A DNA stretch of 64,000 nucleotides, taken from the NCBI GenBank assembly GCA_963702025.1, contig OY969699.1:992001-1056000 (forward strand), in the 5' to 3' direction. Under the pieces are notes generated by a model, which was not told where the DNA came from, ran no database searches, and saw only the letters and a list, made by a program, of their open reading frames with translations. This DNA is from an uncultured bacterium (GTDB lineage Bacteria > Babelota > Babeliae > Babelales > Vermiphilaceae). Of the stretch, positions 4,005 to 58,861 are shown in pieces. Numbering within the stretch: the first letter of the stretch is position 1; each line of letters opens with the position of its first letter. The translations under genes and the position numbers were made by a program.

Positions 4005-4508
4005 TTACTCTGTTTTGAAGTTAAATACTTCATTAATCTCTTTAATAAGGCCATTATCATCACAAATCAGTTTTTTGATTACCACAATAGTACCTTTCTT
4101 TTGAGTGTGTATCTGAAAATGAGCAATCACCATGTTTTCTTCTACATTTGCTATCGGTAAATCTTCATCAAGAACAGACCAGATCCCAAGGTCTTTTTTT
4201 GCTTCGCAAATCTGTTCGTGGAGGCCTTCTATTGTTGTTGCCACCGGGGTTCTTCCCTGAAGATCATGACAGGTATTTACAAATTTCTTAATGTCGGGTG
4301 TAAAAAGTGCCTTCATGGTGGGTAGTAAATCGCATGTTTCTTTTCGACCGAATTGACTTAAAAATTCTCGATAACGTTCTGAAACCGCTTTTAATGATTT
4401 GGCTTTTGCAGCATACGTTTCATAAAATTCAGCCTTTTGAGGCTCCATTGAAACGCAAGAGCTTTGCAATAAAATAATAGATACTAATGATAAAATTGTT
4501 TTATTCAT
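4005..4508 (-). CDS. Secreted hypothetical protein, possible NTF2/SnoaL-like fold
   Basis: Signal peptide ending CVS-ME; ALFTPD...GLIKEINEVF pattern. Confidence 0.55.
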   Translation of the reverse strand: MNKTILSLVSIILLQSSCVSMEPQKAEFYETYAAKAKSLKAVSERYREFLSQFGRKETCDLLPTMKALFTPDIKKFVNTCHDLQGRTPVATTIEGLHEQICEAKKDLGIWSVLDEDLPIANVEENMVIAHFQIHTQKKGTIVVIKKLICDDNGLIKEINEVFNFKTE

Positions 4509-4586
4509 AAAATACTCCCGATACAGAAGGCTGAAAATAGGTACTATTTAATAGTAGTGATAAAATTTCTCTCTATCAAGATACGA

Positions 4587-4949
4587 TTAACGATCGGCTT
4601 TATCCATTAAAAGCATCTTTATTCTGTTGGGTAAATCAGCTTTACCGGCTCCATACATGATGCCACCGATAGCCACTGCTATCCCGCCCCATTGAAATGT
4701 TTGATTACGTGTTCCTAAATATATATTGCGATCATTGGGGTTTAATGCAACTTTTCCTGCACCATGCAGCAGGCCGGAAAGAACTAAAAGAATAGATCCA
4801 CATCCAGCAATTGCTTTACCGCCATCAACCCACTCCGAATTTTTGTGGTAATTACTTTTTAAGATTCGATTATTTGAGTTCATTTGATGCGATAGAGGGT
4901 ACGTGGTAAGGGAAAAAAAGATGCCAAGAAATAAGAATTTATTATTCAT
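4587..4949 (-). CDS. Small membrane/secreted hypothetical protein
   Basis: Signal peptide MNNKFLFLGIFF and two Gly-rich hydrophobic segments. Confidence 0.55.
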   Translation of the reverse strand: MNNKFLFLGIFFSLTTYPLSHQMNSNNRILKSNYHKNSEWVDGGKAIAGCGSILLVLSGLLHGAGKVALNPNDRNIYLGTRNQTFQWGGIAVAIGGIMYGAGKADLPNRIKMLLMDKADR

Positions 4950-5012
4950 TAAAACCCATGAGTGAATCTGGATTATTAAAAGGGTAAAATGCAATAAACT
5001 TATAATAATGAA

Positions 5013-5609
5013 TCATAGATGTGCTTCTTTAGATTGTAATGCAATTTTATAGACAACTGCTGGGTATGAATGAAACGTTTCTTCTTTCCAAAATTGAAAT
5101 CCGGTTTTTTGAGCAACATTAATTGATGCTGAATGAGATGCTGCGGTAATGAGAACAAGCTCCGGCATTTTAAGCACATCGCAGGCATAATCTCTTATTG
5201 CGCATGCGGCTTCAGTTGCATATCCGCTGCCCCAATATTTTTTGGCAATTTTATACCCCAAATCGATGTATTTCTTTCCATCTCCAAGAGATTGCATGCC
5301 TAGTCCACAATAGCCGATCAAAGCCTTATCGTCTTTTTTAATAAGGGCATAGCGGCCCCAGCCATAATCTTTATACGATTTGAGGAGTTTCTTGTGAAGG
5401 TAGTTGTTAATTTCTTCCGGAGTTAAAGGACCGGTTATCGAATAAGTCATTACGTCTTTGTCACTTAAGATTGGTATAAGGGATGGAGCATCCTCGGGTG
5501 TTAAATACCTAATCTGTAAACGTTGGGTTTCTAAAAGAAGATGGCTTTGTTCCATAGCCACAAGAAAAGTTGTCAGAGAAAGAAGAGAGGTAACATATAA
5601 AATTTTCAT
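5013..5609 (-). CDS. GNAT N-acetyltransferase (RimJ/RimL type) with signal peptide
   Basis: LETQRLQIR, LIGYCGL, YWGSGYATEA, ASINVAQKTGF motifs. Confidence 0.9.
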   Translation of the reverse strand: MKILYVTSLLSLTTFLVAMEQSHLLLETQRLQIRYLTPEDAPSLIPILSDKDVMTYSITGPLTPEEINNYLHKKLLKSYKDYGWGRYALIKKDDKALIGYCGLGMQSLGDGKKYIDLGYKIAKKYWGSGYATEAACAIRDYACDVLKMPELVLITAASHSASINVAQKTGFQFWKEETFHSYPAVVYKIALQSKEAHL

Positions 5610-5644
5610 AGTTGTCCTTGAGTGTTTGAATTCTTTTGCTGAAA

Positions 5645-6151
5645 TTATAGCTTTTCTTCTTTTTCCAAAATATCAAATGCTTTATGTGCCGCTTCATAGA
5701 GCCCATTAGTGATATCACCGGGCTTTAGAATCAAATGGACTTCATCACGTCTAATCCATTTATATGCAATTGCTTTGCCTTCTTCCAGTTTAAATTGTCC
5801 TTCAGCTTCAATCAAATAAACCATATCTTTTACCAGCTTTTGATCATAAGACCAATAAAATTCATGCAGTTTGGCTACTATTTGAACCAATTGCATGTTT
5901 CCTTCCTCAAGCAGTTCACGCTTGATGCACTCTTCAATACTTTCGCCCGGTTCTAGGTGGCCGCCCAAAAATTCCCAGCAATAGGGGAACAATTTCCGAG
6001 AGCCAGATCGTTGTTGAATTAATATCGTTTTATCCTGCTTGTTAGCCACAATAAAATCGATCACAGTCTGCTGGTGTTCATTTTCAGAAACGGTATTTTG
6101 CTTTTCTTGAGTATAGGGAAGATGGTGAATGGTAGTTTTATCTATTTTCAT
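5645..6151 (-). CDS. NUDIX hydrolase
   Basis: Nudix box GGHLEPGESIEECIKRELLEEG. Confidence 0.9.
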   Translation of the reverse strand: MKIDKTTIHHLPYTQEKQNTVSENEHQQTVIDFIVANKQDKTILIQQRSGSRKLFPYCWEFLGGHLEPGESIEECIKRELLEEGNMQLVQIVAKLHEFYWSYDQKLVKDMVYLIEAEGQFKLEEGKAIAYKWIRRDEVHLILKPGDITNGLYEAAHKAFDILEKEEKL

Positions 6152-6792: not shown

Positions 6793-7212
6793 ATGGTCAG
6801 AAAAATAATACTAATAATGATTTGCACTATGACCGCTCATGCGATGGAAAATCCTACTCAAGAACAAAAAATAGCCATTGAGGCGATTCGCATGCAATTA
6901 TTGAATGTTTGTCAAAAAGCTTTGCCGGTAATAAAAAAATATACACCTGAAAATGGAGCAATGTTGCATGGATGTACAGAGCTAGCGCTTTCTCAAAAAT
7001 TGTCTTTTGATATTCTAAAATCATGTTATGAAACATTAAAAACATTGGTAGAATCAATTAATCCACGAGAACGCAGATGCGGCTGCCGAAAGTATGATAG
7101 TAGTTTACGACATCCTCCTTGCTCATTTAGAGATCAACGTGCCAAAGCACATTTAGAATTAGAAGCACTATTACAAAAAGTTCGTATAAATAAAAATATG
7201 GATACTATATGA
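6793..7212 (+). CDS. Secreted hypothetical protein
   Basis: Signal peptide ending TAHA-ME; GAGGA RBS. Confidence 0.7.
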   Translation: MVRKIILIMICTMTAHAMENPTQEQKIAIEAIRMQLLNVCQKALPVIKKYTPENGAMLHGCTELALSQKLSFDILKSCYETLKTLVESINPRERRCGCRKYDSSLRHPPCSFRDQRAKAHLELEALLQKVRINKNMDTI

Positions 7213-8063: not shown

Positions 8064-9317
8064 TTATGGTTGCTGCAATCTCATTCCCTCTTTCCATCTT
8101 TTAACATATCGTTCTTGTCTTTGTGCTAAAGCTTTTTTGAGAAGATCAAAGATCTCCTTTCTATCAAGTCCCTTTTCTATAAGATCTTGCGCTAGGCCTA
8201 TAGCGGTTTGGTCATTTTTGTTTCTTATAGTAAGATTTGCTCCCGCATCAATCAATAATGTGACCATTTCTGGATAGCCTTCAGCCACTGCATTATGTAA
8301 GGGAGTATTACCCGTTTGAATACTTTGATTATTAACGTGAGCCCCTTTGGCAATTAACAGTTTTGCTAACTCAGGCTCTCTTCGAAAGATGGCCATATTG
8401 AGAGCAAAATCATCCTTATTATTTTTTATGTTTACATCAGCGCTACTATTAATGAGTAACTTTGCAATATCTCGATTCTGACTATTCAAAGCTAAAAGTA
8501 ACGGTGTATTGCCATCTCCTGCTTGAATATTGGGATTTGCTCCTGCTTCAAGCAATCGACGAGCTATGCCCAGAAGATCCTTGCGATTTGATGCACTAAT
8601 GACAACCAAGGCAGTACCTCCTCCGTTATCTTGCGCATTAATATTTGCACCGGCTTTTATTAAAAAATTAACGATCTCTCGCAATTCTTGAGTTGTAAAA
8701 CTTTCTTCCGGAGAAAAACGTCTAAAGATAGTAATTAATGGTGTTCCACCGGGAGAATATTGGCCCTTCTCTTTTCCATTGATGTTCGAACCATGCTCTT
8801 TCAATAGCTGTATAAACTTTGCATTCTTGATTTGGGTAATATCTAAAGTTGATTTTTCCAGATAATCCTTACCATCAAGTATAATTTTTACCACATATGC
8901 ATCACTGTTGGCGGCCGGATCAAAAGTGAATTGCTGCTTATTAGGACCAGCCCGGCGCGGCGCAAGTTGAAAATCGATAGTCCCAGATTTGAATCTTTCT
9001 ATGTAGAAATTAAGCGCATTAGACATAAATCCCCGATTTGGCAAATCCTGAAATTGTATAGTAAATGATCCCGTTTCTTCTCGCAGAACTGCACTTGGTC
9101 TTGATTCAGGGATTATCGGCAAAGCCTTTGGCTCTAATATTTTTGTATGATCCCCAATCTTTGCTTCTTCTTTGCCAGGGAATTCTATTTTCCAATCTTT
9201 ATCTGTCCTGTTATCAATCGTTAAAAATACTAATCCATTATACGATTCAGGCTTATCCATAGCTGTCAGACAACCTAAAAAGCTGAGCATCAGTAACAGT
9301 ATTCTTTTCATAGCCAT
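8064..9317 (-). CDS. Secreted ankyrin-repeat protein
   Basis: Several GxTPL/TAL...LLxxGAD/N repeats; signal peptide ending CLTA-MD. Confidence 0.9.
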   Translation of the reverse strand: MAMKRILLLMLSFLGCLTAMDKPESYNGLVFLTIDNRTDKDWKIEFPGKEEAKIGDHTKILEPKALPIIPESRPSAVLREETGSFTIQFQDLPNRGFMSNALNFYIERFKSGTIDFQLAPRRAGPNKQQFTFDPAANSDAYVVKIILDGKDYLEKSTLDITQIKNAKFIQLLKEHGSNINGKEKGQYSPGGTPLITIFRRFSPEESFTTQELREIVNFLIKAGANINAQDNGGGTALVVISASNRKDLLGIARRLLEAGANPNIQAGDGNTPLLLALNSQNRDIAKLLINSSADVNIKNNKDDFALNMAIFRREPELAKLLIAKGAHVNNQSIQTGNTPLHNAVAEGYPEMVTLLIDAGANLTIRNKNDQTAIGLAQDLIEKGLDRKEIFDLLKKALAQRQERYVKRWKEGMRLQQP

Positions 9318-9820: not shown

Positions 9821-9828
9821 AGTTAAAA

Positions 9829-10611
9829 ATGGGGAAAATAGCCTTGCTCATAAAGAATAAACAAGTTGGCCTTTTAATAGTATTAATGGTATTAATTCTG
9901 TTTCCATCTTCTGGCCTGTTAGCTATGGAAGAAGAATCTCCACTTTTTAAGGCGATGAGCAAACCCGTTGAGCTTTTTGAACAACTATTACGCGCGGGCG
10001 CTGATCCTAATGTACGTAAGTTTAACGGTCCTCTTACGGGAATTAGTTGCTTACATGCGTTATTATGCTGGACCGATGTCCCGGATCGGGAGAAAAAAAT
10101 TCAGCTGTTGCTCACCCATAAAGCTGATCCTAATATTCAAGCATTTTACAAGGATACGCCATTAATGTACGCAGTAGCAGACTTCCCCTCTGCAATTCCT
10201 CTGCTCTTGCAAGCAGGAGCCGATATTAATCAACCGAATGAAAATGGATTCACCGCACTCTCTAGAGCAGTAAATAAGCGATCAAAAATAGCGGTGCGCT
10301 TATTGCTGACTAATAAAATACAAGCACCCCATTTTCATTATGGCCAGTTAGTGGCGGCAGTTAATCAATATCGCCATGTCTTTTATTTAGCACGATCAGA
10401 GGAGCAAACATTTAGCGGTGTACATCCTATAATTGCTGCCGATTTTCGCGCTATTGGCAGAGCTTTGAAACAATTTGAAGGTCTGTATACCTATCGGGGC
10501 AGAATTGCCAAAAAGGGTCTTGCTCAAATATTACCCGAAGATATTGTAAAAATTATTGCCATGCATTGCGAATATCCGTCTTTACAAGCAAACAACATTA
10601 ACAAACCATAA
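9829..10611 (+). CDS. Secreted ankyrin-repeat protein with C-terminal F-box-like motif
   Basis: Ankyrin repeats (LLRAGADPN, DTPLMYAV, GFTALSRAV); tail LPEDIVKIIAMHC. Confidence 0.85.
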   Translation: MGKIALLIKNKQVGLLIVLMVLILFPSSGLLAMEEESPLFKAMSKPVELFEQLLRAGADPNVRKFNGPLTGISCLHALLCWTDVPDREKKIQLLLTHKADPNIQAFYKDTPLMYAVADFPSAIPLLLQAGADINQPNENGFTALSRAVNKRSKIAVRLLLTNKIQAPHFHYGQLVAAVNQYRHVFYLARSEEQTFSGVHPIIAADFRAIGRALKQFEGLYTYRGRIAKKGLAQILPEDIVKIIAMHCEYPSLQANNINKP

Positions 10612-14873: not shown

Positions 14874-15950
14874 TCAAGTAATTTTGAGAGTCTTATCAAA
14901 AAATTCTAAAACTCTATCCATAATTATATTGAGCGTTTTTAACGGGTCTGGGATATTCAGCTTAGGGAAAACAATATCCGAATCACTAAAAGAATTATGA
15001 TTTGCCACAACGGTAATTAAGCGAGCTTGCTCAGCATTCGTCATTACTAGCTTTTCGATTGTTTCTTTTAGATTTGACGGATTTCCACTCGTACTAATAA
15101 AAAGGAATGGCGCTGGAATTCTTAGATTGGAATCAGGAAAAAGCAGACCGCCATCAAGTGCTATCCCAGCCTTGCAGCGATTATCTTTATTGCAAAAATA
15201 AAGTGCTGCTGCTGCACCGTAAGAATGCCCAATAACTGCTAATTTTTGCAAATCTAAATGACCTGAAAATATAGAATTATGATTGGCATTTATTTTTTCT
15301 AATTCATCTATCACAAATCTTATGTCTGCAACCCAGGTAGCCAATTCACATATTTGTGCACTTTTATCCATTTCTAATTTACCCCGCAAATCCGGTTGGG
15401 CAGGAATCATGCGCTTATCATCAAAAATTACCACCGATGCCGCATACGGTGAATTAATCGCTACAACAATATAACCAGAGCTGGCAAGCTCGGATAACAA
15501 AATCTCATAATTATAACCCGTAAATTGCCATCCATGGCAAAAGATGAGTATTGGAAATTTTTGTTTTTCAGTCGAAAGTGGTGCATTAACTATTACATGA
15601 GTCTTTATTTGATCTAAGTAGTCAAAATGAGAAACTGGCTTATTAAATTTCTTACTTATACTTGCTTTTGTAAAATTCAGTGTATCGTGTAAGTAAGTCA
15701 GTTGCTTGCCTTCGCTATTTTTCTTTGCAGGGTACCAAAATTGTACCATGAGCTCTCGATGATCATTGGTATTCTTTGAATGATTTTCTTTTCGGGTTAT
15801 GTCTCTCAGATAGCTCTTGATAAATCCAACGGGATAGTGCCCTCGCGGCATAGGCATAACAATATTTTTAGGTTGATCAATATATACCGGCTTTTGCATC
15901 GCCTCAACGAGCATAAAGCATCCTAAAGCAATAAGAATAGTTTTGCGCAT
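14874..15950 (-). CDS. Secreted alpha/beta hydrolase (PAF-acetylhydrolase-like)
   Basis: RELMVQFWYP, FPILIFCHG, GHSYG nucleophile, ALDG, NHNSFSD. Confidence 0.85.
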   Translation of the reverse strand: MRKTILIALGCFMLVEAMQKPVYIDQPKNIVMPMPRGHYPVGFIKSYLRDITRKENHSKNTNDHRELMVQFWYPAKKNSEGKQLTYLHDTLNFTKASISKKFNKPVSHFDYLDQIKTHVIVNAPLSTEKQKFPILIFCHGWQFTGYNYEILLSELASSGYIVVAINSPYAASVVIFDDKRMIPAQPDLRGKLEMDKSAQICELATWVADIRFVIDELEKINANHNSIFSGHLDLQKLAVIGHSYGAAAALYFCNKDNRCKAGIALDGGLLFPDSNLRIPAPFLFISTSGNPSNLKETIEKLVMTNAEQARLITVVANHNSFSDSDIVFPKLNIPDPLKTLNIIMDRVLEFFDKTLKIT

Positions 15951-16612: not shown

Positions 16613-16764
16613 AATTATCTCTTTTGCCGCTACTACTATTCTCATCTTTCATAAGCCACTTATCTTATGCCGTCACCTGGCAATGTGGCATTGAGCATCA
16701 GATCAAAAAATGGAACCCTCATCTTCAAAATGGGCGCAATCTCATCCGCTCTTTCCATTCTTGA
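16609..16764 (+). pseudogene. Probable truncated secreted-protein gene (signal peptide only)
   Basis: ATGA overlap with the upstream stop; MKLSLLPLLLFSSFISHLSYA then runs into the 3' end of the convergent ankyrin gene. Confidence 0.4.
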
Positions 16765-41344: not shown

Positions 41345-41360
41345 TGGCTTGCTTAAAAAC

Positions 41361-43729: not shown

Positions 43730-44383
43730 TTAAGAATTATTTTTTTTCTCATTCATAATTTTCAAAGCAGCTTCTCTGGCGTTTAGATGAATGAATGCGA
43801 TATGGCTAGAAAGAGGTGTAAAACCATTTAGGTGTAATACTTGCTTGCAAGCAGTTTCAAGTGCAGCTTTATTAGCTTTTTCGAATGCATCTTTATATTG
43901 CTTTCGATTATCTATTATTTTTTGGATTGATGCTTTTAGTGAATCTTTTTTTGTTTGATATGAAACAAAGTCAAGATCGAGATTCTGATCAAAAAGAATA
44001 AATCGGGTTTCTTGAATAGTCTTTATATGGTCGGATGTAAAATCATTGAACGGGTTCTCTAGCCATTGTGCACCTTTATGTCTATCTTCATCGAGAATCT
44101 GTTCTTTGTGCTCAACTAACATGTTTATCACGCGCATTGCCTGGCTGTGGGGCAATGAATAATAAATGCCTTCTTTTTCTAAATCAGCAAAAACAACAGA
44201 ATTATTTACATCGATTGCAATGGTGCCGGAGATATATGCCTCAACAAATGATTTTGCTTGATGCATGTTCTGGGCAAGATCGAGCGTGGCCATTTCGCGT
44301 ATTCGTATTTTTGGTGAGGCGTTTTCCATGGGATAAAGAATGCTTATGAAGAGCAGTGATAGGGAGAAAAAATGTCTTTTCAT
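43730..44383 (-). CDS. Secreted hypothetical protein
   Basis: Signal peptide ending LYP-ME. Confidence 0.7.
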   Translation of the reverse strand: MKRHFFSLSLLFISILYPMENASPKIRIREMATLDLAQNMHQAKSFVEAYISGTIAIDVNNSVVFADLEKEGIYYSLPHSQAMRVINMLVEHKEQILDEDRHKGAQWLENPFNDFTSDHIKTIQETRFILFDQNLDLDFVSYQTKKDSLKASIQKIIDNRKQYKDAFEKANKAALETACKQVLHLNGFTPLSSHIAFIHLNAREAALKIMNEKKNNS

Positions 44384-47481: not shown

Positions 47482-47892
47482 ATGATTTTTATAAAACACG
47501 TTTTTTTTGTGATTGGTTTTTTGTTCATGATTCGGCTATGCGGTATGCACGAGGCTGAAAAGCTAGACGTATATCTTCATGATAAATTCACCATTAAAAT
47601 AGGAGAAGGTGGGCATGAGGAATCCCTACAACCTATATCCACCACTTATGGTTATTATCTTGATGAAGAAAGTGAAAAGATTATCAAATTTGTTGATGAC
47701 GAGTACAAAGCTGATCGAATAACACGTGAGATGTATCATCCTACTGAATATTTGCCGGGCCCTGGACCCAAAGGGGGGCGGATCCATGAGTTTATCTTTA
47801 AAGCGAAAAAAGCAGGAACTGCCCGGATCATTCTGAGAAATACACAAAAGCCGCAAGAAATAACAAAAATCTACCAGGTAACTGTTAATTAA
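47482..47892 (+). CDS. Secreted protein, possible chagasin/I42 inhibitor-like fold
   Basis: Signal peptide; FTIKI...STTYGY...GG...FIFKAKKAGTARIIL...YQVTV. Confidence 0.55.
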   Translation: MIFIKHVFFVIGFLFMIRLCGMHEAEKLDVYLHDKFTIKIGEGGHEESLQPISTTYGYYLDEESEKIIKFVDDEYKADRITREMYHPTEYLPGPGPKGGRIHEFIFKAKKAGTARIILRNTQKPQEITKIYQVTVN

Positions 47893-48751: not shown

Positions 48752-49207
48752 TTAAATCGGGCATATCACTGTCTGCGCCGTGATTAAGCAAGAGGGTATT
48801 AAATAAGCCGGACCCAGATCAATTACTCTTTTTAATAAAGCGTTCGAATATTTATTAAAATCGACAAAATCTAAGAAGATGATATCTAATTCTTTGGTTA
48901 AACGGCTAATATGTACTGCCATTGTATGCGGGACTCTTTGGAATTTAGATTCCGTATCTTGAAAGATATTTACGAATGAATATGTTTCATTATATATTTG
49001 TTCATCAACGTTCTGATAGTCGCGTTTATACCGTTCCTTCAGAATGATAATTGCTTCGAGATATGTTTTGCCTTGTGCCTGAAGAGCATTCAAGTCAGAG
49101 TTTATTTTTGTTCTGGATATTCTTTCTTGTGGCAAATCCATGCTGTGTGTTAAGGAAGTGGCAAGCAATGGTGTAAGTATTAACAGTTTGATTTTCCTGT
49201 GTTCCAT
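48752..49207 (-). CDS. Secreted hypothetical protein
   Basis: Signal peptide ending THS-MD. Confidence 0.65.
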   Translation of the reverse strand: MEHRKIKLLILTPLLATSLTHSMDLPQERISRTKINSDLNALQAQGKTYLEAIIILKERYKRDYQNVDEQIYNETYSFVNIFQDTESKFQRVPHTMAVHISRLTKELDIIFLDFVDFNKYSNALLKRVIDLGPAYLIPSCLITAQTVICPI

Positions 49208-49771
49208 CTATATTAATTTTTCTTTTTTAAAGACAAGCAAATCTAATTGGTTTTTTTCTAAGGCAATATCGTAGGCGGATTTGCCATCTTGATTTGGTAC
49301 AAAGATGTCAGCGCCATTGTCTAAGAGAATTTTTAATTTACAGGGGTATTGGATAAGTACTTCTTGAAGCAATGTTTTCTTTTGATTTGGTATATTTATG
49401 TCTATGCCAGTTTTAATGTGTGTTTTTAAAACTGCTTCAAATGAAGGGTAAAAATAATAACTTCCTTCTATGAACTTGTTGATTGCAGCATGTTGCAATT
49501 TTTGATTATCACATTCTTTAAATAGACTGACAATCATTCTTGCATGCTCAAGCTTGCCGATTAATAAATAAAGTTCATAATAATTAATTAAATCATCTAT
49601 ACTCGATTGCTCCCCTGATTTTATGAGCTGTTTCAAATAATCTAAATTATTTTCTATAAGTGCTGAGGTTATTTTATTTTTAATCTCATCCTCAGGTTTA
49701 ATCATCGCCTGCGATGAAGCAGCTATAAGAAGTGATCCAAGCGCACTAAAAATAAGATTTTTATAATTCAT
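49208..49771 (-). CDS. Secreted ankyrin-repeat protein
   Basis: ILLDNGADIFVPNQDGKSAYDIA; signal peptide ending SQA-M. Confidence 0.8.
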   Translation of the reverse strand: MNYKNLIFSALGSLLIAASSQAMIKPEDEIKNKITSALIENNLDYLKQLIKSGEQSSIDDLINYYELYLLIGKLEHARMIVSLFKECDNQKLQHAAINKFIEGSYYFYPSFEAVLKTHIKTGIDINIPNQKKTLLQEVLIQYPCKLKILLDNGADIFVPNQDGKSAYDIALEKNQLDLLVFKKEKLI

Positions 49772-49801: not shown

Positions 49802-50770
49802 TTACTCAATTTTTTTAACTGTTTCATTATTTCTTAATAATTTTATGAAAATATCATCGCTTGGATATGGCAGGTCATGTGCAATACTCATCGCTGTTTG
49901 GCCATCGTTGGTGATAATCTGGGCATCCGCACCATGTACAAGAAGTAATTGCGCAGCCGGCACATTTTCATTATAAATAGCGTTCATTAACAAGGTATAG
50001 GAAGTTTGAGGGTCCTTAAGATTTGGATTACCCCCAGCGGCCAGAAGCAAATCTAAATACCGTGTGTCGTTGACATCTGTTGCCAGAATAAGCAATGGTT
50101 TTTGATAATGATCATTGCCCATCATATTTGGATCGGCGCCCGCTGCTAGCAGATTTTTGCATTGTGCGTACCAGTCATACTGTTTTGTGCTATTTTTGAA
50201 GGTATTAAATAATTCAAAAAGGTGCTCAGATAATTTGTTTTTGCAAAATTGTGGTGAATATACTTGAGCAACAACTTTCCATCCATTTAAAAATACTGCA
50301 TCATTAACTGTCAAAAGACCATATTTCAATTGCCAAAGAATTGCTTTTTTATGGTGCGGCTCTTGAATGAATTTCTTAAGCCATTCCATTGCGTGAGCAT
50401 TATTCAGTGAGAGAGCCATTAATATTTTTGATTCCGGTTTTGGCCTGTTATTAATAATACGTGAGATGAAATAATTAGTGTTAACCAAGCCGCGTATTTT
50501 CTTATTGGTTAGCTCTATAGATTTTAAGTTGTTTAATGCTTCGTTCGTGGTTTTTCCGATTGCGCCATATTCAAATATCAGCAGTAATAATTCATTCGGA
50601 AGTTGGAATAAGTAGCTTTCTGGAGCTTTATTTTCTTCGTAACAAGTTGTTTCAACCTTCTCAAGTATAGGTTTTTCCATGCTTACAAGGACATAGTTGC
50701 TGCAAAGGGCAAAGAGTGATATCAGCATCTTACAAGATTTGAATAGTCTATTCATAATAAATTTCTCCAT
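49802..50770 (-). CDS. Secreted F-box plus ankyrin-repeat protein
   Basis: YLFQLPNELLLLIFEY...L.SIELTNKK F-box-like motif; three to four ankyrin repeats. Confidence 0.85.
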   Translation of the reverse strand: MEKFIMNRLFKSCKMLISLFALCSNYVLVSMEKPILEKVETTCYEENKAPESYLFQLPNELLLLIFEYGAIGKTTNEALNNLKSIELTNKKIRGLVNTNYFISRIINNRPKPESKILMALSLNNAHAMEWLKKFIQEPHHKKAILWQLKYGLLTVNDAVFLNGWKVVAQVYSPQFCKNKLSEHLFELFNTFKNSTKQYDWYAQCKNLLAAGADPNMMGNDHYQKPLLILATDVNDTRYLDLLLAAGGNPNLKDPQTSYTLLMNAIYNENVPAAQLLLVHGADAQIITNDGQTAMSIAHDLPYPSDDIFIKLLRNNETVKKIE

Positions 50771-54728: not shown

Positions 54729-54819
54729 TCAACTTTTTTCCTTTGCCAATCATAATTCATTTGCTATCATGTAACCATTTTGAAATAGTTTGTTCAAGAT
54801 GTTTTTGCACAAGGAAATA

Positions 54820-55152
54820 ATGTACAGAGTAATGTTGTGTGTCGGAGCTTTATTTTTTAATAGTATTTGTACAATGGAACGTAGCCATTCAATGATAACA
54901 AGATCTCGCGCACGGGTTTTGGAAGAAATGCGTGTTCGGCACGAGAGAAATGAGTTTAAAGAAGAAGTTATCTCTCGTTTCTATAGAACCGCGGGTCTTG
55001 GAATAGTAAGCGTGTGCTGTTTTGGAGGCGCAGAATCAATGGATAGCATAGCGTTAAAGGTATGCTTGGGGTGCGTGGCTTGTGCGTGTGGGCAATTGAG
55101 CTTGATAAGTGGTATGCTCACGGTGAGAGATTATCAGAAATGCAAAGAATAG
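54820..55152 (+). CDS. Array member 1: small exported Cys-rich hydrophobic-hairpin protein
   Basis: Signal ending ICT-ME; VSVCCFGG and VCLGCVACACG segments; basic tail. Confidence 0.7.
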   Translation: MYRVMLCVGALFFNSICTMERSHSMITRSRARVLEEMRVRHERNEFKEEVISRFYRTAGLGIVSVCCFGGAESMDSIALKVCLGCVACACGQLSLISGMLTVRDYQKCKE

Positions 55153-55234: not shown

Positions 55235-55765
55235 ATGATATTTGTAATGCTACTCTGTGTTTTTAGCGCTATCACTGCGATGGAGCAACCATCTCAACAT
55301 GAGAAGGGCAAAGCTCTTTTGCATTATAAAAAGGCGCGTGATGCATGGTTTGATTGTGCTTGGGACTCTTTTTATTATCGTGAAAAAGATGACGATGGTC
55401 GCGAAACAATGTTTTGCGCAAGAAAGAATCAATATGAAACCTGGCTTGCGGGAAATCGGAGTCGCATTAAGACCGAATGTATTTGTATAGCGTTAACCTC
55501 GGTCGCAACCATTTGTTGTATAAGTTACTTATTGTCAGAAAATATTACCGATAATTCTCAAGAAGTTTGTAGAAATTTTTCTTTAACAGATTGCTTATGT
55601 TGCTGGGGAGCTACTCTTTGTCCGGTAGAGTGTTATCTGAGCGTTCGCAATCTCTGTGATACATGTAAAGAAAAAAAATCAACTAAAACTTTATTGTGTG
55701 ACTATGAAAAAATTGAACAATTAAGGCCGGTCGAGGTTATAATTCAAAAGATGCACAATGAATAG
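55235..55765 (+). CDS. Array member 2: exported Cys-rich hydrophobic-hairpin protein
   Basis: Signal ending ITA-ME; ECICIAL..ICCI and DCLCCWGATLCPVEC. Confidence 0.7.
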   Translation: MIFVMLLCVFSAITAMEQPSQHEKGKALLHYKKARDAWFDCAWDSFYYREKDDDGRETMFCARKNQYETWLAGNRSRIKTECICIALTSVATICCISYLLSENITDNSQEVCRNFSLTDCLCCWGATLCPVECYLSVRNLCDTCKEKKSTKTLLCDYEKIEQLRPVEVIIQKMHNE

Positions 55766-55796
55766 AGCAGAGTCATCTTTTGTTAAGGTATGGATA

Positions 55797-56171
55797 ATGA
55801 AAAAATTTACTGTCTTTGGTCTTTTATTGTGTGGCATGGTGCACGCAATGAATGAGAAGATTACACATCGATTAGCAGAACGAGAAAAATGGGCAATTAC
55901 AGCGGGATTACGCGAACCGAGTGAAAGTGAACAAGAAAGAATGGAAATAGTGAAAGATCATGCAAAAACAATGAGCTGGCTCAGTGCAGGTAGTTTGTTG
56001 CTTGCCGCGACCTGCTTTGGTATTGGTGCGCAATCATATTCTGCAGAAACAAAACTGCTCACTTCTTTGTGTGGTGAAGTGTGCTGTTATTGTGGACTCG
56101 TCACGTGCGTGTGCGGATGTTGCAGTTGGCGTAAGTATCGGAATGAAAGACGAAGTTGGGGATATAAATAA
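55797..56171 (+). CDS. Array member 3
   Basis: Signal ending VHA-MN; LCGEVCCYCGLVTCVCGCCSWRKYR. Confidence 0.75.
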   Translation: MKKFTVFGLLLCGMVHAMNEKITHRLAEREKWAITAGLREPSESEQERMEIVKDHAKTMSWLSAGSLLLAATCFGIGAQSYSAETKLLTSLCGEVCCYCGLVTCVCGCCSWRKYRNERRSWGYK

Positions 56172-56554
56172 TGAAGAAACTATTTATGGTTTTTTTGTTG
56201 TTGCATTGCGCATTGAGCTGTGCCATGGCCGATAAAGACAGGAGAGAGCTCAGGGCAATATCTGAGCGGAGCAAGAATGAAGAAAAACAAGAAATCAAAA
56301 TATATGCGCTTCTCTCGGCAGTGTCTTTTTCTAGTACATTATTCGGCTTATACGAGTCACGCAACTTTTTAAGAACAATGTATGATAATGAAATGCAACA
56401 GCGGTGTTCGGTGCGCACTCAAAGTTCACTAAAAGATTCGCAGAGAGTGGTTGGCTGCATTGTTTGTGGTATAGTAACTTGTGTAGTCTGCTTGGGGCTC
56501 TGTGATCACTGTCAACGACATTGCAAATATAAGAAGGCACTCCGTGATTTATAA
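56171..56554 (+). CDS. Array member 4
   Basis: Signal ending SCA-MA; GCIVCGIVTCVVCLGLCDHCQRHCKYKK. Confidence 0.75.
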   Translation: MKKLFMVFLLLHCALSCAMADKDRRELRAISERSKNEEKQEIKIYALLSAVSFSSTLFGLYESRNFLRTMYDNEMQQRCSVRTQSSLKDSQRVVGCIVCGIVTCVVCLGLCDHCQRHCKYKKALRDL

Positions 56555-56987
56555 AACAATCTCATTTCTTTTTTTCTCAGTACTCATGATGAGTACACAA
56601 GGTATGGAAGAGGAAAAGCGAAAACAATTACAATGCAAAATAAACGAAGAGTGTTCGAATGCGGCTCGCGATAGAAAGAGACTCGAATTTAAAAAATATG
56701 CGGATTTCTATAAAGAAAATCGCAATACTATGCTTCTGTGGGGTTCGGGCACTGGTACAATAACGGCGGCATGTTCTTATGCGCTACGCGATATCTTTGG
56801 CAAAAGTTTGGAATTTTTAACTGCAGAACATCCCGAAATAGTGCCCCCAATCATGCTGGGGCCCAAAGAACAATGGGCTTGCATTTGCTGCGTATTTTGT
56901 GGACTTGGCACCGCTAGCTTTTGTTTTTTTGCATGGGAGGAGTGCCAGAAATATCGTGAACATGATAAAAAATATCATGAACAATAA
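56544..56987 (+). CDS. Array member 5 (probable GTG start)
   Basis: Signal ending TQG-ME; ACICCVFCGLGTASFCFFAWEECQKYREHDKKYHE. Confidence 0.7.
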   Translation: MIYKTISFLFFSVLMMSTQGMEEEKRKQLQCKINEECSNAARDRKRLEFKKYADFYKENRNTMLLWGSGTGTITAACSYALRDIFGKSLEFLTAEHPEIVPPIMLGPKEQWACICCVFCGLGTASFCFFAWEECQKYREHDKKYHEQ

Positions 56988-57020: not shown

Positions 57021-57449
57021 ATGAGTAAGAGATTGTTATTACTTTTTTTGATATTGAAGTGCGCTTTGAGCAGTGCCATGACCAATGAAGAAGTGCAGCG
57101 GAAAAAAAGAGAAGCGCTTCAAAGAATTGACGAGAGAAATATAAGAAGAGCGCTGGTTGCCCGAGATATGGCGGATGACATAAAAGGTCTCAAACAAAAT
57201 ATAATCTTTGGTGGCTCCTCTTTGCTGGCAACAGTAGGATGTTTTTTTGTTGGACGTCAATCAGTACGATATTTTTATACTGGTATAATAGGGGACCAAT
57301 GTGCTGATGTAACGTTTATTCCTAGTACAGATGCCAATGCATTTTGTTGTGGTCTTTTATGTGGGCTAACAACATGTATTGGTTGCCTTCTGGTATGTGA
57401 TAATTGTCGACGATATAATAAACATAAAAAACGGTATCATGAAATCTAA
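57021..57449 (+). CDS. Array member 6
   Basis: Signal ending SSA-MT; FCCGLLCGLTTCIGCLLVCDNCRRYNKHKKRYHE. Confidence 0.75.
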   Translation: MSKRLLLLFLILKCALSSAMTNEEVQRKKREALQRIDERNIRRALVARDMADDIKGLKQNIIFGGSSLLATVGCFFVGRQSVRYFYTGIIGDQCADVTFIPSTDANAFCCGLLCGLTTCIGCLLVCDNCRRYNKHKKRYHEI

Positions 57450-57783
57450 TATTGGATTACTAATTCTCATTATCGGTATGCCACTACCGGCCATGAATAA
57501 TGAAAGACACTATGAAACACAACCGAATGTTGAATTTGCAAAATCATTTGTTCAAGGGTTAGTTCTCCTGGGGGCCGGCTCAAAATATTTCATAGTGGCA
57601 GATCGTAATCGCACAAAATATCGTTTACAAGAAAATGGTTCCCAGGCTTTTTCAGAAATATATTATGATGTTGGGCAGAAAGTGGCTTGTTGTTGCGGGA
57701 CTCTTCATTTTTGTTGCGCCTGTGGTATTTTTGGTTACGGATTGTATAAAAAACATGGTCGAAGGAATTTTCGTGAAGAATAA
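57439..57783 (+). CDS. Array member 7
   Basis: Signal ending LPA-MN; VACCCGTLHFCCACGIFGYGLYKKH. Confidence 0.7.
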   Translation: MKSNIGLLILIIGMPLPAMNNERHYETQPNVEFAKSFVQGLVLLGAGSKYFIVADRNRTKYRLQENGSQAFSEIYYDVGQKVACCCGTLHFCCACGIFGYGLYKKHGRRNFREE

Positions 57784-58189
57784 GATATTTGTATTACTTG
57801 CAATAACAACGATTAACGTGGGTGCAATGACAAGAAAAGAATTGCGCCTGCGGCATCAAGAACGTCAAGCACGAGAAAAAGTTCAACAAGCAGAAACAAT
57901 AAACTATGAGGAACATAAGGCACGCCAAAAAAATGAACAGTTTGAGATGCTAAAAACAGTTCTTTGTTTTGACGCAGCAACTGTAGCTGCCGGACTTGCT
58001 CTTATTAAATTTGGACCGAATTGCTATGAATTTCCGGCTCCTTGTGGCATAGGTTGCAGTTTGGTTTGCGCCGGATGCGTTACCGCGGGTGCATCAGTTG
58101 ATCATTATTTGTATGAATATAATCCAGAATATAAAGAATGTTGTGACAATGTACTTTGTGGTGGGCCACGCGCAAGTAAGCTGCAATAA
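57773..58189 (+). CDS. Array member 8 (probable GTG start)
   Basis: GAAGGA RBS; signal ending VGA-MT; PCGIGCSLVCAGCV. Confidence 0.7.
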   Translation: MKNKIFVLLAITTINVGAMTRKELRLRHQERQAREKVQQAETINYEEHKARQKNEQFEMLKTVLCFDAATVAAGLALIKFGPNCYEFPAPCGIGCSLVCAGCVTAGASVDHYLYEYNPEYKECCDNVLCGGPRASKLQ

Positions 58190-58242
58190 GATCTTTTTTT
58201 GATGATTATTTTGAAAACGTATAAATCTAAGGTAAAAACAGT

Positions 58243-58569
58243 ATGAAAAAACTACTATTTCTTTTATTGCTTTCTCTCTCATCATTTAATTGTCATGGCA
58301 TGGTAACGCGCAATCAAGTGCGTCAACGTATATTACAAAGTCAAAAAGTTCAACCGGCCACCTTTACCGATGAAAAAATAAAGGTGCATCTTTCTCGTAA
58401 TAGATTGGATGAGTGTCCCGATTGCGTAGACTTCACATCTTTAGCTGGCCTTGCTGGCTTGACTGCGGCATTTCTTTGCTGTGCTAGTGGTAATTCTACC
58501 GCCGGATACTACTTTGGATTGCCATCAGCCATCGCATTATGTACACAATTAGATGAATGTGGAGAATGA
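58243..58569 (+). CDS. Array member 9
   Basis: Signal ending CHG-MV; LAGLAGLTAAFLCCASG...YYFGLPSAIALC hairpin. Confidence 0.7.
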   Translation: MKKLLFLLLLSLSSFNCHGMVTRNQVRQRILQSQKVQPATFTDEKIKVHLSRNRLDECPDCVDFTSLAGLAGLTAAFLCCASGNSTAGYYFGLPSAIALCTQLDECGE

Positions 58570-58573
58570 GGCG

Positions 58574-58861
58574 ATGATTGGCTTACGGATGCTCTTTTGT
58601 GTTCTGTGCTTAGTAAGTTTGTCTTCATTTGGTATGGCGCCAGGCAATGGGCCCGGCAACCGTGCTCGAATAAGTCAGCTTAGGGCTAATTGCTATGCAG
58701 TGACGCTTATTACTCTCTGTAACGTGCTGATTTATTTTTCCGATAGATATGAATTTACCTATACAAGTCCACTATTGCTTGACGTTGGTTCTAAGATAGT
58801 TGGGTATAGTGCTATGGGCATTGCTTTGTGGGCAAGTATGGTTGCTCATAATGAGTTGTGA
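58574..58861 (+). CDS. Array member 10
   Basis: Signal ending SFG-MA; two hydrophobic segments, fewer Cys than other members. Confidence 0.6.
   Translation: MIGLRMLFCVLCLVSLSSFGMAPGNGPGNRARISQLRANCYAVTLITLCNVLIYFSDRYEFTYTSPLLLDVGSKIVGYSAMGIALWASMVAHNEL

What the first reader, a model, noticed from the sequence alone, without database searches (positions are those of the whole stretch)
4005..58861. Window-wide 'signal peptide then Met' signature: exported proteins whose mature form starts like a eukaryotic protein
Seen: by my count about 37 unrelated ORFs or stubs have Met immediately after the apparent signal-peptide end (e.g. FLVA-MEQ, TAHA-MEN, CLTA-MDK, LVEA-MQK, FHA-MEL, LCA-MEK, VYA-MEQ, THS-MDL, ITA-MEQ, VHA-MNE). 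About 24 continue with E, D, Q or N. The set spans ankyrin proteins, GNATs, hydrolases, kinases and the Cys-rich array. Established: Met is not a favoured +1 residue for signal peptidase I; in eukaryotes N-terminal Met is stabilising in the Arg/N-degron pathway, and Met-Glu/Asp/Asn/Gln are NatB acetylation substrates. Inference: the +1 Met is selected so that effectors look like native host proteins, or it is the recognition tag of an uncharacterised secretion route. Alternatively it is an internal start giving a cytoplasmic isoform, or the trace of signal cassettes fused onto captured genes.
Basis: partly seen in the sequence, partly recalled or inferred. Interest (0 to 1): 0.75.

Follow-up and report, generated by a model that had tools for sequence, protein, structure and literature searches.

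The report
Methionine-first rule after effector signal peptides
In this small parasite-type bacterium several hundred export signals, mostly on ankyrin-type and unknown proteins and rarely on ordinary envelope proteins, end exactly before a methionine that is usually followed by glutamate, a pattern far above chance that is likely a selected mark of proteins sent out to the host.

Summary
In the flagged range I find 35 junctions of signal-like leader, small residue, then Met. In 23 of them D, E, N or Q follows.

In the 1.6-Mb genome, 213 of 804 signal-like N-termini have Met directly before the first charged residue; background Met is 1.9%. The consensus is L/A/S-x-A/G/S | M-E-K-P, and the leader before the Met has a median of 20 residues.

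- **Start codon:** the upstream ATG has a Shine-Dalgarno core in 176 of 317 cases, the junction Met in 2 of 317.
- **Lineage:** the rule is strong in the window's own family (14-24% in three relatives). It is weaker in one other family and at background (0-5%) in six others.
- **Protein class:** Met-class proteins are mostly ankyrin, LRR, WD40 or RING proteins, or have no known family. Conserved envelope proteins lack the Met.

Best reading: signal peptidase I is predicted to cut before the Met, and the Met-Glu start is likely a tag of the host-directed secretome. An internal start or a relic start codon fits poorly.

The scan noted the same rule earlier in two other Dependentiae genomes (e1-2372423, e1-2087300). 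My searches found no published description.

The parts
4005..4508 (-). ORF with signal-like leader; junction CVS|MEP, Met codon 4446-4448; no Pfam family
4587..4949 (-). ORF; junction SHQ|MNS, Met codon 4881-4883 (-1 residue is not small)
5013..5609 (-). GNAT (Acetyltransf_3); junction LVA|MEQ, Met codon 5553-5555
6793..7212 (+). ORF, no family; junction AHA|MEN, Met codon 6844-6846
8064..9317 (-). Ankyrin protein; junction LTA|MDK, Met codon 9258-9260
9829..10611 (+). Ankyrin protein; junction LLA|MEE, Met codon 9925-9927
14874..15950 (-). PAF-acetylhydrolase-type hydrolase; junction VEA|MQK, Met codon 15897-15899
16725..17681 (-). Ankyrin protein; junction TYG|MQK, Met codon 17619-17621
20429..21058 (-). 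Ankyrin protein; junction FLA|MSR, Met codon 20978-20980
22419..23048 (-). ORF, no family; junction MFA|MDT, Met codon 22977-22979
24146..24673 (+). GNAT; junction CTA|MGK, Met codon 24224-24226
24796..25539 (-). ORF, no family; junction TDA|MLQ, Met codon 25459-25461
28470..29459 (-). Ankyrin protein; junction FHA|MEL, Met codon 29397-29399; A|MELTQ is kept in ~90%-identical database relatives whose leader end differs
29777..31267 (-). Ankyrin protein; junction LCA|MEK, Met codon 31211-31213
31671..32225 (+). Ankyrin protein; junction LNA|MVE, Met codon 31725-31727
34029..34997 (+). ORF (hydrolase-like by eye, no Pfam hit at 1e-6); junction ITA|MQK, Met codon 34098-34100
35571..36383 (-). Ankyrin protein; junction MNG|MIP, Met codon 36315-36317
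40598..41509 (-). CPT-type P-loop kinase; junction CQT|MEQ, Met codon 41270-41272; true start upstream is uncertain
41361..41996 (-). Oligoribonuclease-like exonuclease with leader; junction VYA|MEQ, Met codon 41928-41930
43730..44383 (-). ORF, no family; junction LYP|MEN (Pro at -1, atypical for signal peptidase I), Met codon 44327-44329
46098..47138 (+). ORF, no family; junction VWP|MEK (Pro at -1), Met codon 46155-46157
47482..47892 (+). ORF, no family; junction LCG|MHE, Met codon 47545-47547
48752..49207 (-). ORF, no family; junction THS|MDL, Met codon 49139-49141
49208..49771 (-). ORF, no family; junction SQA|MIK, Met codon 49703-49705
49802..50770 (-). Ankyrin protein; junction LVS|MEK, Met codon 50678-50680
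54790..55152 (+). Cys-rich array member; junction ICT|MER, Met codon 54874-54876
55235..55765 (+). Cys-rich array member; junction ITA|MEQ, Met codon 55280-55282
55758..56171 (+). Cys-rich array member; junction VHA|MNE, Met codon 55848-55850
56171..56554 (+). Cys-rich array member; junction SCA|MAD, Met codon 56225-56227
56502..56987 (+). Cys-rich array member; junction TQG|MEE, Met codon 56604-56606
57021..57449 (+). Cys-rich array member; junction SSA|MTN, Met codon 57078-57080
57379..57783 (+). Cys-rich array member; junction LPA|MNN, Met codon 57493-57495
57635..58189 (+). Cys-rich array member; junction VGA|MTR, Met codon 57827-57829
58243..58569 (+). Cys-rich array member; junction CHG|MVT, Met codon 58300-58302
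58553..58861 (+). Cys-rich array member; junction SFG|MAP, Met codon 58634-58636

Best explanation
These are Sec-type signal peptides that signal peptidase I is predicted to cut immediately before a conserved Met, so the exported proteins would begin Met-Glu (often Met-Glu-Lys-Pro); this start is likely a selected N-terminal tag of the host-directed, accessory secretome.

Shown by the sequence:
- The motif exists, lies at the expected cleavage position, and is far above chance.
- The upstream ATG is the ribosome-binding start.
- The rule is restricted to the window's own family of the Dependentiae-type phylum, with weaker traces in one or two others.
- It marks ankyrin, LRR, WD40, RING and orphan proteins and skips conserved envelope proteins.

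Inferred:
- Cleavage occurs at that bond.
- The Met-Glu start is read after cleavage, most likely by a bacterial component. This would be loosely like a sorting signal placed right after a cleavage site.
For: Position and form:
- Logo over 369 sites: -3 L/A/S/T/I/V, -1 A .38, G .21, S .14, +1 Met, +2 E .50, +3 K .23, +4 P .26.
- The leader before the Met has a median of 20 residues, interquartile range 19-23. K/R is present in the n-region of 294 of 317. No twin-arginine motif in any of 317.
- A (-3,-1) scoring rule of my own, blind to +1, makes Met the commonest +1 residue (158 of 706). Its site falls exactly on the Met in 149 of the 328 N-termini that have a Met nearby; the next most common offset has 30.

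Real start upstream: a Shine-Dalgarno core of at least 4 nt precedes 176 of 317 first starts and 2 of 317 junction Mets; internal Mets in general have it in 5.3%. Public gene calls keep the upstream start for 4 of 5 genes tested, and the Met-start form for 0 of 5.

Selection: among 108 paralogue pairs aligned in register, 27 are Met/Met, 62 are none/none and 19 are mixed (about 53 mixed expected if independent). In the 21 Met/Met pairs below 50% identity, residue identity is .67 at -1.57 at +2.38 at -3 and +3, and about .2 elsewhere.

Protein class (Pfam):
- Of 140 Met-class proteins, 27 are ankyrin proteins, 3 LRR and 3 WD40, with RING/IBR, phosphatase and GNAT members besides; 93 have no family.
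- The single envelope hit (OmpH) is probably a false site.
- Of 148 signal-like proteins without the Met, 7 are ankyrin proteins and about 17 are envelope or transport housekeeping proteins: SecDF, SecG, GspD, GspC, OmpA, binding proteins, M23 and others.
- Fisher tests give p = 2e-4 and 1e-4. The envelope labels are my own.

Further properties of the Met class: 279 of 317 have no further membrane-type segment. Only 49 of 317 have a homologue in 1.4 Mb sampled from relatives, against 133 of 443 for the other signal-like class.

Lineage-specific flavour: Glu:Asp at +2 is 95:7 here. A sister genus, G016, prefers Asp: 5 D to 1 E at rule sites, and 8 MD to 2 ME in the listing. This suggests a reader that co-evolves inside the bacterium.

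Export routes: one S26 signal peptidase. GspD, GspC-like and GspE-type genes are present. No VirB4, FHIPEP or VipB match.
Against: - Cleavage is not measured, and my signal-peptide and cleavage rules are crude. No SignalP was available.
- I found no candidate reader. The GspC-like type II secretion component is in 60 of 61 genomes of the phylum, including families without the rule. If the type II system reads the tag, something else must differ between lineages.
- 38 of 317 Met-class proteins have a further membrane-type segment, among them the Cys-rich array of this window. A type II system would not be expected to release such proteins.
- The tag is not obligatory: 7 of 34 signal-bearing ankyrin proteins sampled lack it. 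Proteins without any family split 93 with the Met to 86 without.
- Gene age is confounded with class. Met-class genes are the fast-evolving ones, so a processing optimum that only young genes have reached could look the same.
- Pro at -1 in 21 of 317 is atypical for signal peptidase I.
- The loose 'Met class' has a background of 0-15% in families without the rule. Some tens of the 317 are therefore chance hits, and 12 look like lipoproteins.
Confidence: 0.4

Rival explanations
1. Host-side mimicry. The cut is before the Met as above, but the tag works only in the host cytosol. A Met that is retained (not a MetAP substrate), is NatB-type and is not followed by a hydrophobic residue would look like a native eukaryotic N-terminus and would avoid N-degron recognition.
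For: At rule-predicted sites with Met at +1, the +2 residue is D/E/N/Q in 124 of 158. It is a small MetAP-removable residue in 16 of 158 (composition predicts about 37%) and hydrophobic in 6 of 158. The carriers are rich in eukaryote-type domains: ankyrin, WD40, LRR, RING/IBR and C2H2. Published Dependentiae genomes are read as secreting signal-tagged ankyrin proteins into the host (passages of PMC4378268 and PMC6561590).
Against: - NatB and N-degron rules, as I recall them, treat Asp and Glu alike. Yet Glu:Asp is 95:7 here and reversed in genus G016.
- Lys+3 and Pro+4 are part of the motif.
- Small +1 residues such as Ala or Ser would also be stabilising, so Met is not required.
- Other families of the phylum, with 34-47% signal-like ORFs, lack the Met.
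- Acetylation of an already made, imported protein by NatB is not established (recalled).
Confidence: 0.25
2. Processing optimum. The signal peptidase I of this family has acquired a P1'-P2' preference for Met-Glu. Fast-evolving young genes have drifted to that optimum while old envelope proteins keep ancestral sites. The N-terminus itself would have no later role, or would only block aminopeptidases as pyroglutamate does under the Bacteroidetes Q-rule.
For: Signal peptidase I is the one protein known to contact this bond. The rule is lineage-specific, and the +2 flavour differs between genera. Met-class genes are the least conserved. The Q-rule shows that a lineage-wide +1 preference can exist (abstracts and passages of PMC5837995 and PMC10653852).
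Against: - Conserved, presumably well-expressed envelope proteins should feel selection for efficient processing most strongly, yet they lack the Met.
- Signal-bearing ankyrin proteins carry the Met more often (27 of 34) than proteins with no family (93 of 179), which is not a simple age gradient.
- The genome holds one S26 gene, and I identified no distinguishing feature in it (the sequence was not analysed further).
Confidence: 0.15
3. Relic start codon. These genes were once cytoplasmic or were captured from elsewhere. They gained a signal peptide by 5' extension or fusion, and the Met is their old start codon.
For: Many carriers are enzyme types that are normally cytoplasmic: GNAT, oligoribonuclease, kinases. 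In two cases the Met lies within about 10 residues of where solved cytoplasmic homologues begin. For the GNAT, query residue 30 aligns with chain residue 19 and the Met is at 19. For the oligoribonuclease, query residue 34 aligns with chain residue 4 and the Met is at 23.
Against: - True N-termini in this genome have K .19, N .13 and E .06 at position 2, against E .50 after the junction Met.
- The small residue is fixed exactly at -1, and -3 fits the cleavage rule. A relic would not dictate this.
- The Met is conserved above its flanks among diverged paralogues.
- In a conserved protein the Met replaces His of orthologues in two other genomes: LLS|MYGRD here, against RA|HDVLLE and VA|HDVLLE.
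- Families with equally many signal-tagged genes lack it.
Confidence: 0.07
4. Alternative internal initiation. The junction ATG would be a second start that gives a cytoplasmic isoform without the signal.
For: It is always ATG, and it would yield a complete domain protein. Only 38-55% of genuine starts have a clear Shine-Dalgarno core, so initiation without one exists in this genome.
Against: A Shine-Dalgarno core precedes 2 of 317 junction Mets, below even ordinary internal Mets at 5.3%. The upstream bases are T/C-rich, unlike the A-rich context of true starts. This reading does not explain the small -1 residue or the -3 pattern. Public gene calls hold none of the five Met-start forms tested.
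Confidence: 0.04

Closest known systems
Classical Sec / signal peptidase I signal peptides (n-h-c regions, -3/-1 rule)
   Same: Positive n-region, hydrophobic core, small residues at -1 and -3, a leader of about 20 residues. One S26 peptidase gene and Sec components are present.
   Different: Met is the commonest predicted +1 residue (158 of 706). It is coupled to Glu at +2 and applies to only part of the secretome. That Met is rare at +1 elsewhere is recalled knowledge. Here the only support is the Met-poor families of the same phylum.
Bacteroidetes Q-rule (Gln at +1 of signal peptidase I substrates, cyclised to pyroglutamate; PMC5837995, PMC10653852: abstracts, and passages of the first)
   Same: A lineage-specific, near-invariant residue directly after the signal peptidase I cut, seen in hundreds of proteins.
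   Different: The residue is Met, not Gln, and no modifying enzyme is known. The Q-rule covers most substrates, periplasmic ones included, and its authors argue against a sorting role. Here conserved envelope proteins are exempt, and the rule holds within one family of the phylum and not across the phylum.
Plasmodium PEXEL / host-targeting motif (RxLxE/Q/D cut by plasmepsin V; the new N-terminus xE/Q/D is needed for export to the host; abstracts of PMC10900883 and PMC3567231 seen in a search listing)
   Same: Function-level analogy only. A cut downstream of a signal sequence exposes a short N-terminus with E/Q/D at its second position on effectors of an intracellular parasite.
   Different: Eukaryotic ER pathway with a different protease and no RxL. 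Here the signal peptidase cut itself would create the N-terminus. No homology is implied.
Signal-tagged secretome of Dependentiae (Babela massiliensis PMC4378268; Chromulinavorax destructans PMC6561590; passages read)
   Same: A very high share of genes with signal peptides (44% of CDS in one; 79 of 126 ankyrin proteins in the other). Type II secretion is named as the only system in Babela. Here 49% of crude ORFs are signal-like, and I found no T3SS, T4SS or T6SS marker.
   Different: The word 'methionine' does not occur in the main text of the Babela paper or of PMC4776705. The signal-peptide passages of the Chromulinavorax paper do not mention a Met.
Sorting signals placed right after a cleavage site: the Lol +2 rule of lipoproteins and the lipoprotein export signal of Bacteroidetes (both recalled, not looked up)
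   Same: Residues at +2 to +5 of the mature protein decide the final compartment.
   Different: Those act on lipid-modified Cys+1 proteins. Here +1 is Met, and only 12 of 317 have a lipobox-like string.

Membership tests
Sec / signal peptidase I (type I) signal peptide | Positively charged n-region followed by a hydrophobic h-region | tested here: met
   This was the selection rule itself. K/R is present in the n-region of 294 of 317 Met-class proteins.
Sec / signal peptidase I (type I) signal peptide | Small uncharged residues at -1 and -3 of the cleavage site, no Pro at +1 | tested here: met
   In the 369-site logo, -1 is A/G/S in 73% and -3 is L/A/S/T/I/V in 80%. Exception: Pro at -1 in 21 of 317.
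Sec / signal peptidase I (type I) signal peptide | Signal peptidase I and Sec translocon genes in the genome | tested here: met
   One S26 match at C1:839975-840799. SecD/F and SecG were found. SecA and SecY were not searched.
Sec / signal peptidase I (type I) signal peptide | Cleavage actually occurs at the predicted bond | not testable with these tools
   Needs N-terminal proteomics or Edman sequencing.
Bacteroidetes Q-rule | Gln at +1, converted to pyroglutamate by a glutaminyl cyclase | tested here: not met
   The +1 residue is Met. A cyclase was not searched for.
Bacteroidetes Q-rule | Applies to most signal peptidase I substrates, including periplasmic ones | tested here: not met
   About 17 envelope or transport proteins among 148 non-Met proteins, against 1 doubtful case among 140 Met-class proteins.
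Lipoprotein (signal peptidase II) signal | Lipobox L-[AS]-[GA]-C with Cys at +1 | tested here: not met
   A lipobox-like string occurs in 12 of 317 Met-class proteins. These are probably lipoproteins misfiled by my rule, for example window 10622-11728.
Type IV prepilin (class III) signal | Short charged leader, G|F/M-T-L-x-E, with the hydrophobic stretch after the cut | tested here: not met
   The hydrophobic stretch lies before the Met, and polar residues follow it.
Tat signal | Twin-arginine motif in the n-region | tested here: not met
   0 of 317.
PEXEL / host-targeting motif | RxLxE/Q/D downstream of an ER signal sequence, cut by plasmepsin V | tested here: not met
   No RxL in the logo, and this is a bacterial system. 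The comparison is an analogy only.
Internal translation start | Ribosome-binding context like that of genuine starts | tested here: not met
   A Shine-Dalgarno core precedes 2 of 317 junction Mets, against 176 of 317 upstream starts. The context is T/C-rich.

The most novel reading that the evidence does not exclude
The Met-Glu(-Lys-Pro) N-terminus made by signal peptidase I is a bacterial counterpart of a host-targeting signal. It would be the address label by which about 300 effectors are picked out of the periplasm and sent to the host cell, read by a still unknown, lineage-specific component.
Probability: 0.3. Interest if true: 0.85.

Novelty: new variant of a known kind. Interest (0 to 1): 0.68.

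Why it matters
Dependentiae put signal peptides on a third to a half of their genes. How the host-directed proteins are told apart from resident envelope proteins is unknown.

A short, countable motif at the cleavage site would help in three ways:
- It gives a sequence rule for listing the effector set of this family: about 300 proteins here, mostly without known domains.
- It provides a direct handle for experiments, such as N-terminal proteomics and point mutants.
- It would be a second example, after the Bacteroidetes Q-rule, of a lineage rewriting the +1 position of signal peptidase I substrates. This time the rule applies to a functional subset only.

Tried and rejected
- **RNA evidence.** No RNA holder was listed for window 4005-12000. 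Three soil DNA runs held small shares of the words, and I did not lay them.
- **Correlation with type II secretion.** A GspC-like protein is present in 60 of 61 genomes of the phylum, so it is not specific to lineages with the rule.
- **Orthologue series for one Met-class hydrolase (window 14874-15950).** Matches in 11 of 46 genomes of the family (10 of 45 besides the window's own) turned out to be a paralogous family with mixed anchors and leaders. My print-out cut several N-termini, so it gave no usable series.
- **Reciprocal best hits.** Comparison with 1.4 Mb from seven relatives gave only a handful of Met-class pairs, too few for statistics. They serve as examples only.
- **Alignment to solved cytoplasmic homologues, to test the relic idea.** Inconclusive: the Met lies within about 10 residues of their starts but not at them.
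- **Taxon naming.** A housekeeping protein (PRPP synthase) matched nothing above 34% identity, which only shows a deep lineage. The Dependentiae placement rests on an earlier scan note, and fits the single-order phylum sample of roughly 1-Mb genomes.
- **ORF-calling artefact.** Rejected because of the Shine-Dalgarno signal at the upstream start.
- **Shared signal cassette.** Considered by eye only: the leaders look unrelated in sequence. I did no formal clustering.
- **Literature.** Searches, plus passages of three Dependentiae papers, found no description of the rule. Supplements were not opened, and subscription journals are not covered.

Full report
**What the window and genome are.** The window lies at 992001-1056000 of a single 1,596,033-bp contig with 39% G+C. 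A housekeeping protein, PRPP synthase, matches nothing above 34% identity in one genome per species. An earlier scan note places the genome in the Dependentiae (TM6). A sample of 61 genomes of its phylum falls into one order of genomes of roughly 0.8-1.9 Mb, which fits that placement. I did not test the taxonomy further.

**Checking the observation in the window.** Translations of the ORFs show the pattern directly: a Lys/Arg-bearing start, a hydrophobic stretch, a small residue, then Met. With a rule of my own for signal-like N-termini, 47 of 71 crude ORFs in 4000-58900 qualify. Of these, 27 have [AGSCTP]-Met at the end of the stretch, 4 have Met after another residue, and 16 have none. My overlap filter had dropped some ORFs. 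One candidate (10622-11728) looks like a lipoprotein and was left out.

The carriers are diverse:
- 9 ankyrin proteins
- 2 GNATs
- 1 PAF-acetylhydrolase-type hydrolase
- 1 CPT-type kinase
- 1 oligoribonuclease-like protein
- 10 members of a Cys-rich tandem array without any Pfam family
- several further orphans

**Is it more than chance?** I called 1653 ORFs across the genome, and about 803 are signal-like by my rule.
- Met frequency along these N-termini peaks at 8.2% at residues 20-21 and is 1.5-2% beyond residue 30. Background is 1.9%.
- I then aligned on the first charged residue after the hydrophobic stretch, which does not look at Met. Met is the residue before it in 26% of cases. When that charged residue is Glu, Met precedes it in 175 of 320, against 18 of 155 for Asp and 8 of 115 for Arg.
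- In 503 hydrophobic runs inside proteins, Met is not among the eight commonest last residues.
- The logo over 369 sites reads -3 L/A/S/T/I/V, -1 A .38 / G .21 / S .14, Met, +2 E .50, +3 K .23, +4 P .26.
- Among proteins of 100 residues or more, 317 of 760 signal-like proteins fall in my 'Met class'. This loose class has a background of 0-15% in lineages without the rule, so some tens of the 317 are chance. Twelve more look like lipoproteins.

**Where would the cut be?** No standard predictor was on hand. I used a rough (-3,-1) score of my own that ignores the +1 residue.
- It makes Met the commonest +1 residue (158 of 706).
- It puts the site exactly on the Met in 149 of the 328 N-termini that have a Met nearby. 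The next offset has 30.
- The leader before the Met has a median of 20 residues (interquartile range 19-23), and no twin-arginine motif occurs in 317.
- The rule often picks sites inside the hydrophobic core, giving Leu, Ile or Phe at +1, so these figures are indicative only.

**Which ATG is the start?** The upstream start of Met-class genes has a Shine-Dalgarno core of at least 4 nt in 176 of 317. The junction Met has one in 2 of 317, while ordinary internal Mets have one in 5.3%. The bases before the junction Met are T/C-rich, unlike the A-rich context of real starts. For 4 of 5 window genes the public protein collection holds the long form. The Met-start form was found for 0 of 5, and the fifth gene was found in neither form. 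The leaders are therefore translated, and the junction ATG does not look like a start.

**Is the Met a relic of an older start?**
- Real N-termini here have K .19, N .13 and E .06 at position 2, not E .50.
- Among 108 paralogue pairs aligned in register, the Met state is shared far more often than chance: 27 both, 62 neither, 19 mixed. I estimate about 53 mixed if the states were independent.
- In the 21 shared-Met pairs below 50% identity, identity is .67 at -1.57 at +2.38 at -3 and +3, and about .2 elsewhere. Pairs are not independent.
- In one conserved protein this genome has LLS|MYGRD where orthologues in two other genomes have RA|HDVLLE and VA|HDVLLE.
- In database relatives about 90% identical to one ankyrin protein, the leader end differs while A|MELTQ is kept.
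- Alignment to solved cytoplasmic homologues was inconclusive: the Met lies within about 10 residues of their starts but not at them.

**Phylogenetic range.** I ran the same script on 100-200 kb from eleven other genomes of the phylum. 'Met before first charged' is the alignment described above; 'Met at +1' uses the +1-blind rule.

| Genome (relation or family) | Met before first charged | Met at +1 by the blind rule |
|---|---|---|
| G000 (this genome) | 213/804 | 158/706 |
| G006 (same genus) | 15/79 | 17/67 |
| G017 (same family) | 19/80 | 19/72 |
| G016 (same family) | 11/80 | 13/64 |
| G028 (f11) | 11/82 | 7/71 |
| G060 (f6) | 0/72 | 1/61 |
| G061 (f12) | 1/69 | 3/62 |
| G066 (f13) | 2/93 | 2/83 |
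| G019 (f2) | 2/38 | 1/34 |
| G022 (f5) | 1/45 | 3/40 |
| G041 (f4) | 0/34 | 0/26 |
| G067 (f3) | 1/27 | 3/24 |

G067 is a special case: 12 of its 27 have small-residue-Met, mostly G|MV in what look like paralogues, so a variant may exist there. Samples are small and kin are not independent. Further families could not be sampled. The Met-poor families have just as many signal-like ORFs (34-47%), so they serve as a control for the method.

**Which proteins carry it?** I ran Pfam on 140 of the 200 Met-class proteins that lie in the first 800 kb or in the window (E ≤ 1e-5).
- 27 ankyrin, 3 LRR and 3 WD40 proteins
- RING/IBR, C2H2, tyrosine phosphatase, GNAT, AAA and a few enzymes
- 93 with no family
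- One envelope family, OmpH, whose Met probably lies inside the leader

I also ran Pfam on 148 of the 227 signal-like proteins without the Met (E ≤ 1e-7).
- 7 ankyrin and 2 LRR proteins
- About 17 envelope or transport proteins by my own labelling: SecD/F, SecG, GspD, GspC-like, OmpA, two binding proteins, M23, M15, NamZ, thioredoxins, MscS, Nramp and others
- 86 with no family

All 27 ankyrin hits also pass 1e-7. Fisher tests give p = 2e-4 for ankyrin and p = 1e-4 for envelope proteins. The N-termini of the envelope proteins show lipoboxes, anchors or ordinary sites, and none has the junction Met.

Met-class proteins are mostly soluble: 279 of 317 have no further membrane-type segment and 1 of 317 has two or more, against 60 of 443 in the other class. 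They are also poorly conserved. Homologues in the 1.4 Mb sampled from relatives were found for 49 of 317, against 133 of 443 for the other signal-like class and 293 of 696 for proteins without a signal.

**Export machinery.** The genome has one S26 signal peptidase, GspD and a GspC-like protein, and two GspE/PilT-type ATPases. I found no match to VirB4, FHIPEP or VipB. Published work on two cultured Dependentiae reports the same picture. In one, 79 of 126 ankyrin proteins have signal peptides and type II secretion is the only system found (passages of PMC4378268). In the other, 44% of CDS have signal peptides (passages of PMC6561590). The GspC-like protein is in 60 of 61 genomes of the phylum, so the type II system does not track the Met rule.

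**What it most likely does.**

*Shown:* a conserved, lineage-specific [A/G/S]-Met-Glu junction at the expected cleavage position of translated leaders, on the accessory, effector-like part of the secretome.

*Inferred:* signal peptidase I cuts before the Met, and the new Met-Glu(-Lys-Pro) end has a function of its own.

I favour a tag read inside the bacterium that marks proteins for release (confidence about 0.4), for these reasons:
- The class split.
- The motif extends to +4.
- Glu outnumbers Asp 95:7 here, whereas genus G016 prefers Asp. That is what a co-evolving reader would produce and what a generic host rule would not.

Against it:
- No reader was found.
- The rule is not obligatory.
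- 38 of 317 carriers, including the Cys-rich array, have a further membrane-type segment.
- Gene age is confounded with class.

At rule sites with Met at +1, the next residue is D/E/N/Q in 124 of 158, a small MetAP-removable residue in 16 and hydrophobic in 6. That is the spectrum of retained-Met, NatB-type N-termini, as I recall those rules. A changed subsite preference of the peptidase (0.15), a relic start codon (0.07) and an internal start (0.04) follow.

**Comparison with what is known.** By every feature I could test, these are ordinary type I signal peptides. The exception is the +1/+2 rule.

The nearest precedent is the Bacteroidetes Q-rule, Gln at +1 turned into pyroglutamate (PMC5837995, PMC10653852). 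It differs in residue, in having a known modifying enzyme, and in covering most substrates, periplasmic ones included.

At the level of function, the Plasmodium PEXEL motif is the closest analogy. There a cut exposes xE/Q/D at the new N-terminus of exported effectors (abstracts seen).

I found no description of a Met rule in four literature searches or in the passages of three Dependentiae papers. Supplements and subscription journals were not covered.

The scan itself noted the same rule earlier in two other Dependentiae genomes (e1-2372423, e1-2087300). One of those notes says gene finders start such genes at the wrong ATG. For the five genes I checked here, that was not so.

**Verdict.** This is a new variant of a known kind, a lineage-specific +1 rule of signal peptidase I substrates restricted to an effector-like subset. 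Interest is moderately high, because it gives a sequence rule and a direct experimental handle on how these parasites sort hundreds of secreted proteins.

Noticed in passing
window 54790-58861: Tandem array of ten small paralogous ORFs. Each has a leader, the junction Met, a charged coiled stretch, a hydrophobic segment and a Cys-rich tail. None has a Pfam family. Several neighbours overlap in different frames.
   Followed up: partly
window 41361-41996 and 7209-8030: Two oligoribonuclease-like (DEDD exonuclease) ORFs carry signal-like leaders. The first matches solved Orn/REXO2 chains (E about 2e-13) starting about 12 residues after the junction Met. An exported oligoribonuclease would be unusual.
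   Followed up: partly
window 2897-3910, 26258-26920, 40598-41509: Three P-loop kinases of the chloramphenicol-phosphotransferase-like type, each with a hydrophobic leader. Pfam CPT was confirmed only for the third. The other two were judged by eye from the shared GTSSxGKS motif.
   Followed up: partly
window 10622-11728: Beta-lactamase-family protein whose leader ends ITAC|MQK. This is a lipobox with Cys, so it is probably a lipoprotein with Met at +2 and not a Met-rule site.
   Followed up: partly
window 32357-33481 and 37400-38347: Two ORFs that look like insertion-sequence transposases by eye, lying among the effector-like genes. Not tested.
   Followed up: no
G000 outside the window (e.g. 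C1:127203-127724, 490855-491304, 565065-565730, 129862-130542): Signal-like leaders on enzymes that are normally cytoplasmic: nucleoside diphosphate kinase, a HIT protein, peroxiredoxin and a DOT1-like methyltransferase. Several earlier scan notes report similar export-tagged enzymes in other Dependentiae.
   Followed up: no
junction codons genome-wide: At DNA level the junction reads GCN ATG GAA: G at -3 in 61% and G at +4 in 60%. By coincidence or not, these are the two key positions of a eukaryotic Kozak context. Ala at -1 and Glu at +2 explain it.
   Followed up: no
L220-L224 (G067, family f3): 12 of 27 signal-like N-termini have small-residue-Met, but it is followed by Val or other uncharged residues (LLG|MVKEE, LLG|MVDQQ). 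Some are clearly paralogues. This may be a different flavour of the rule.
   Followed up: partly
G000 C1:~107855-109478 and ~565900-569300: LigD primase-polymerase/phosphoesterase, Ku and an ATP-dependent ligase (an end-joining set) are present in this small genome. My rule flagged them as signal-like, probably wrongly.
   Followed up: no
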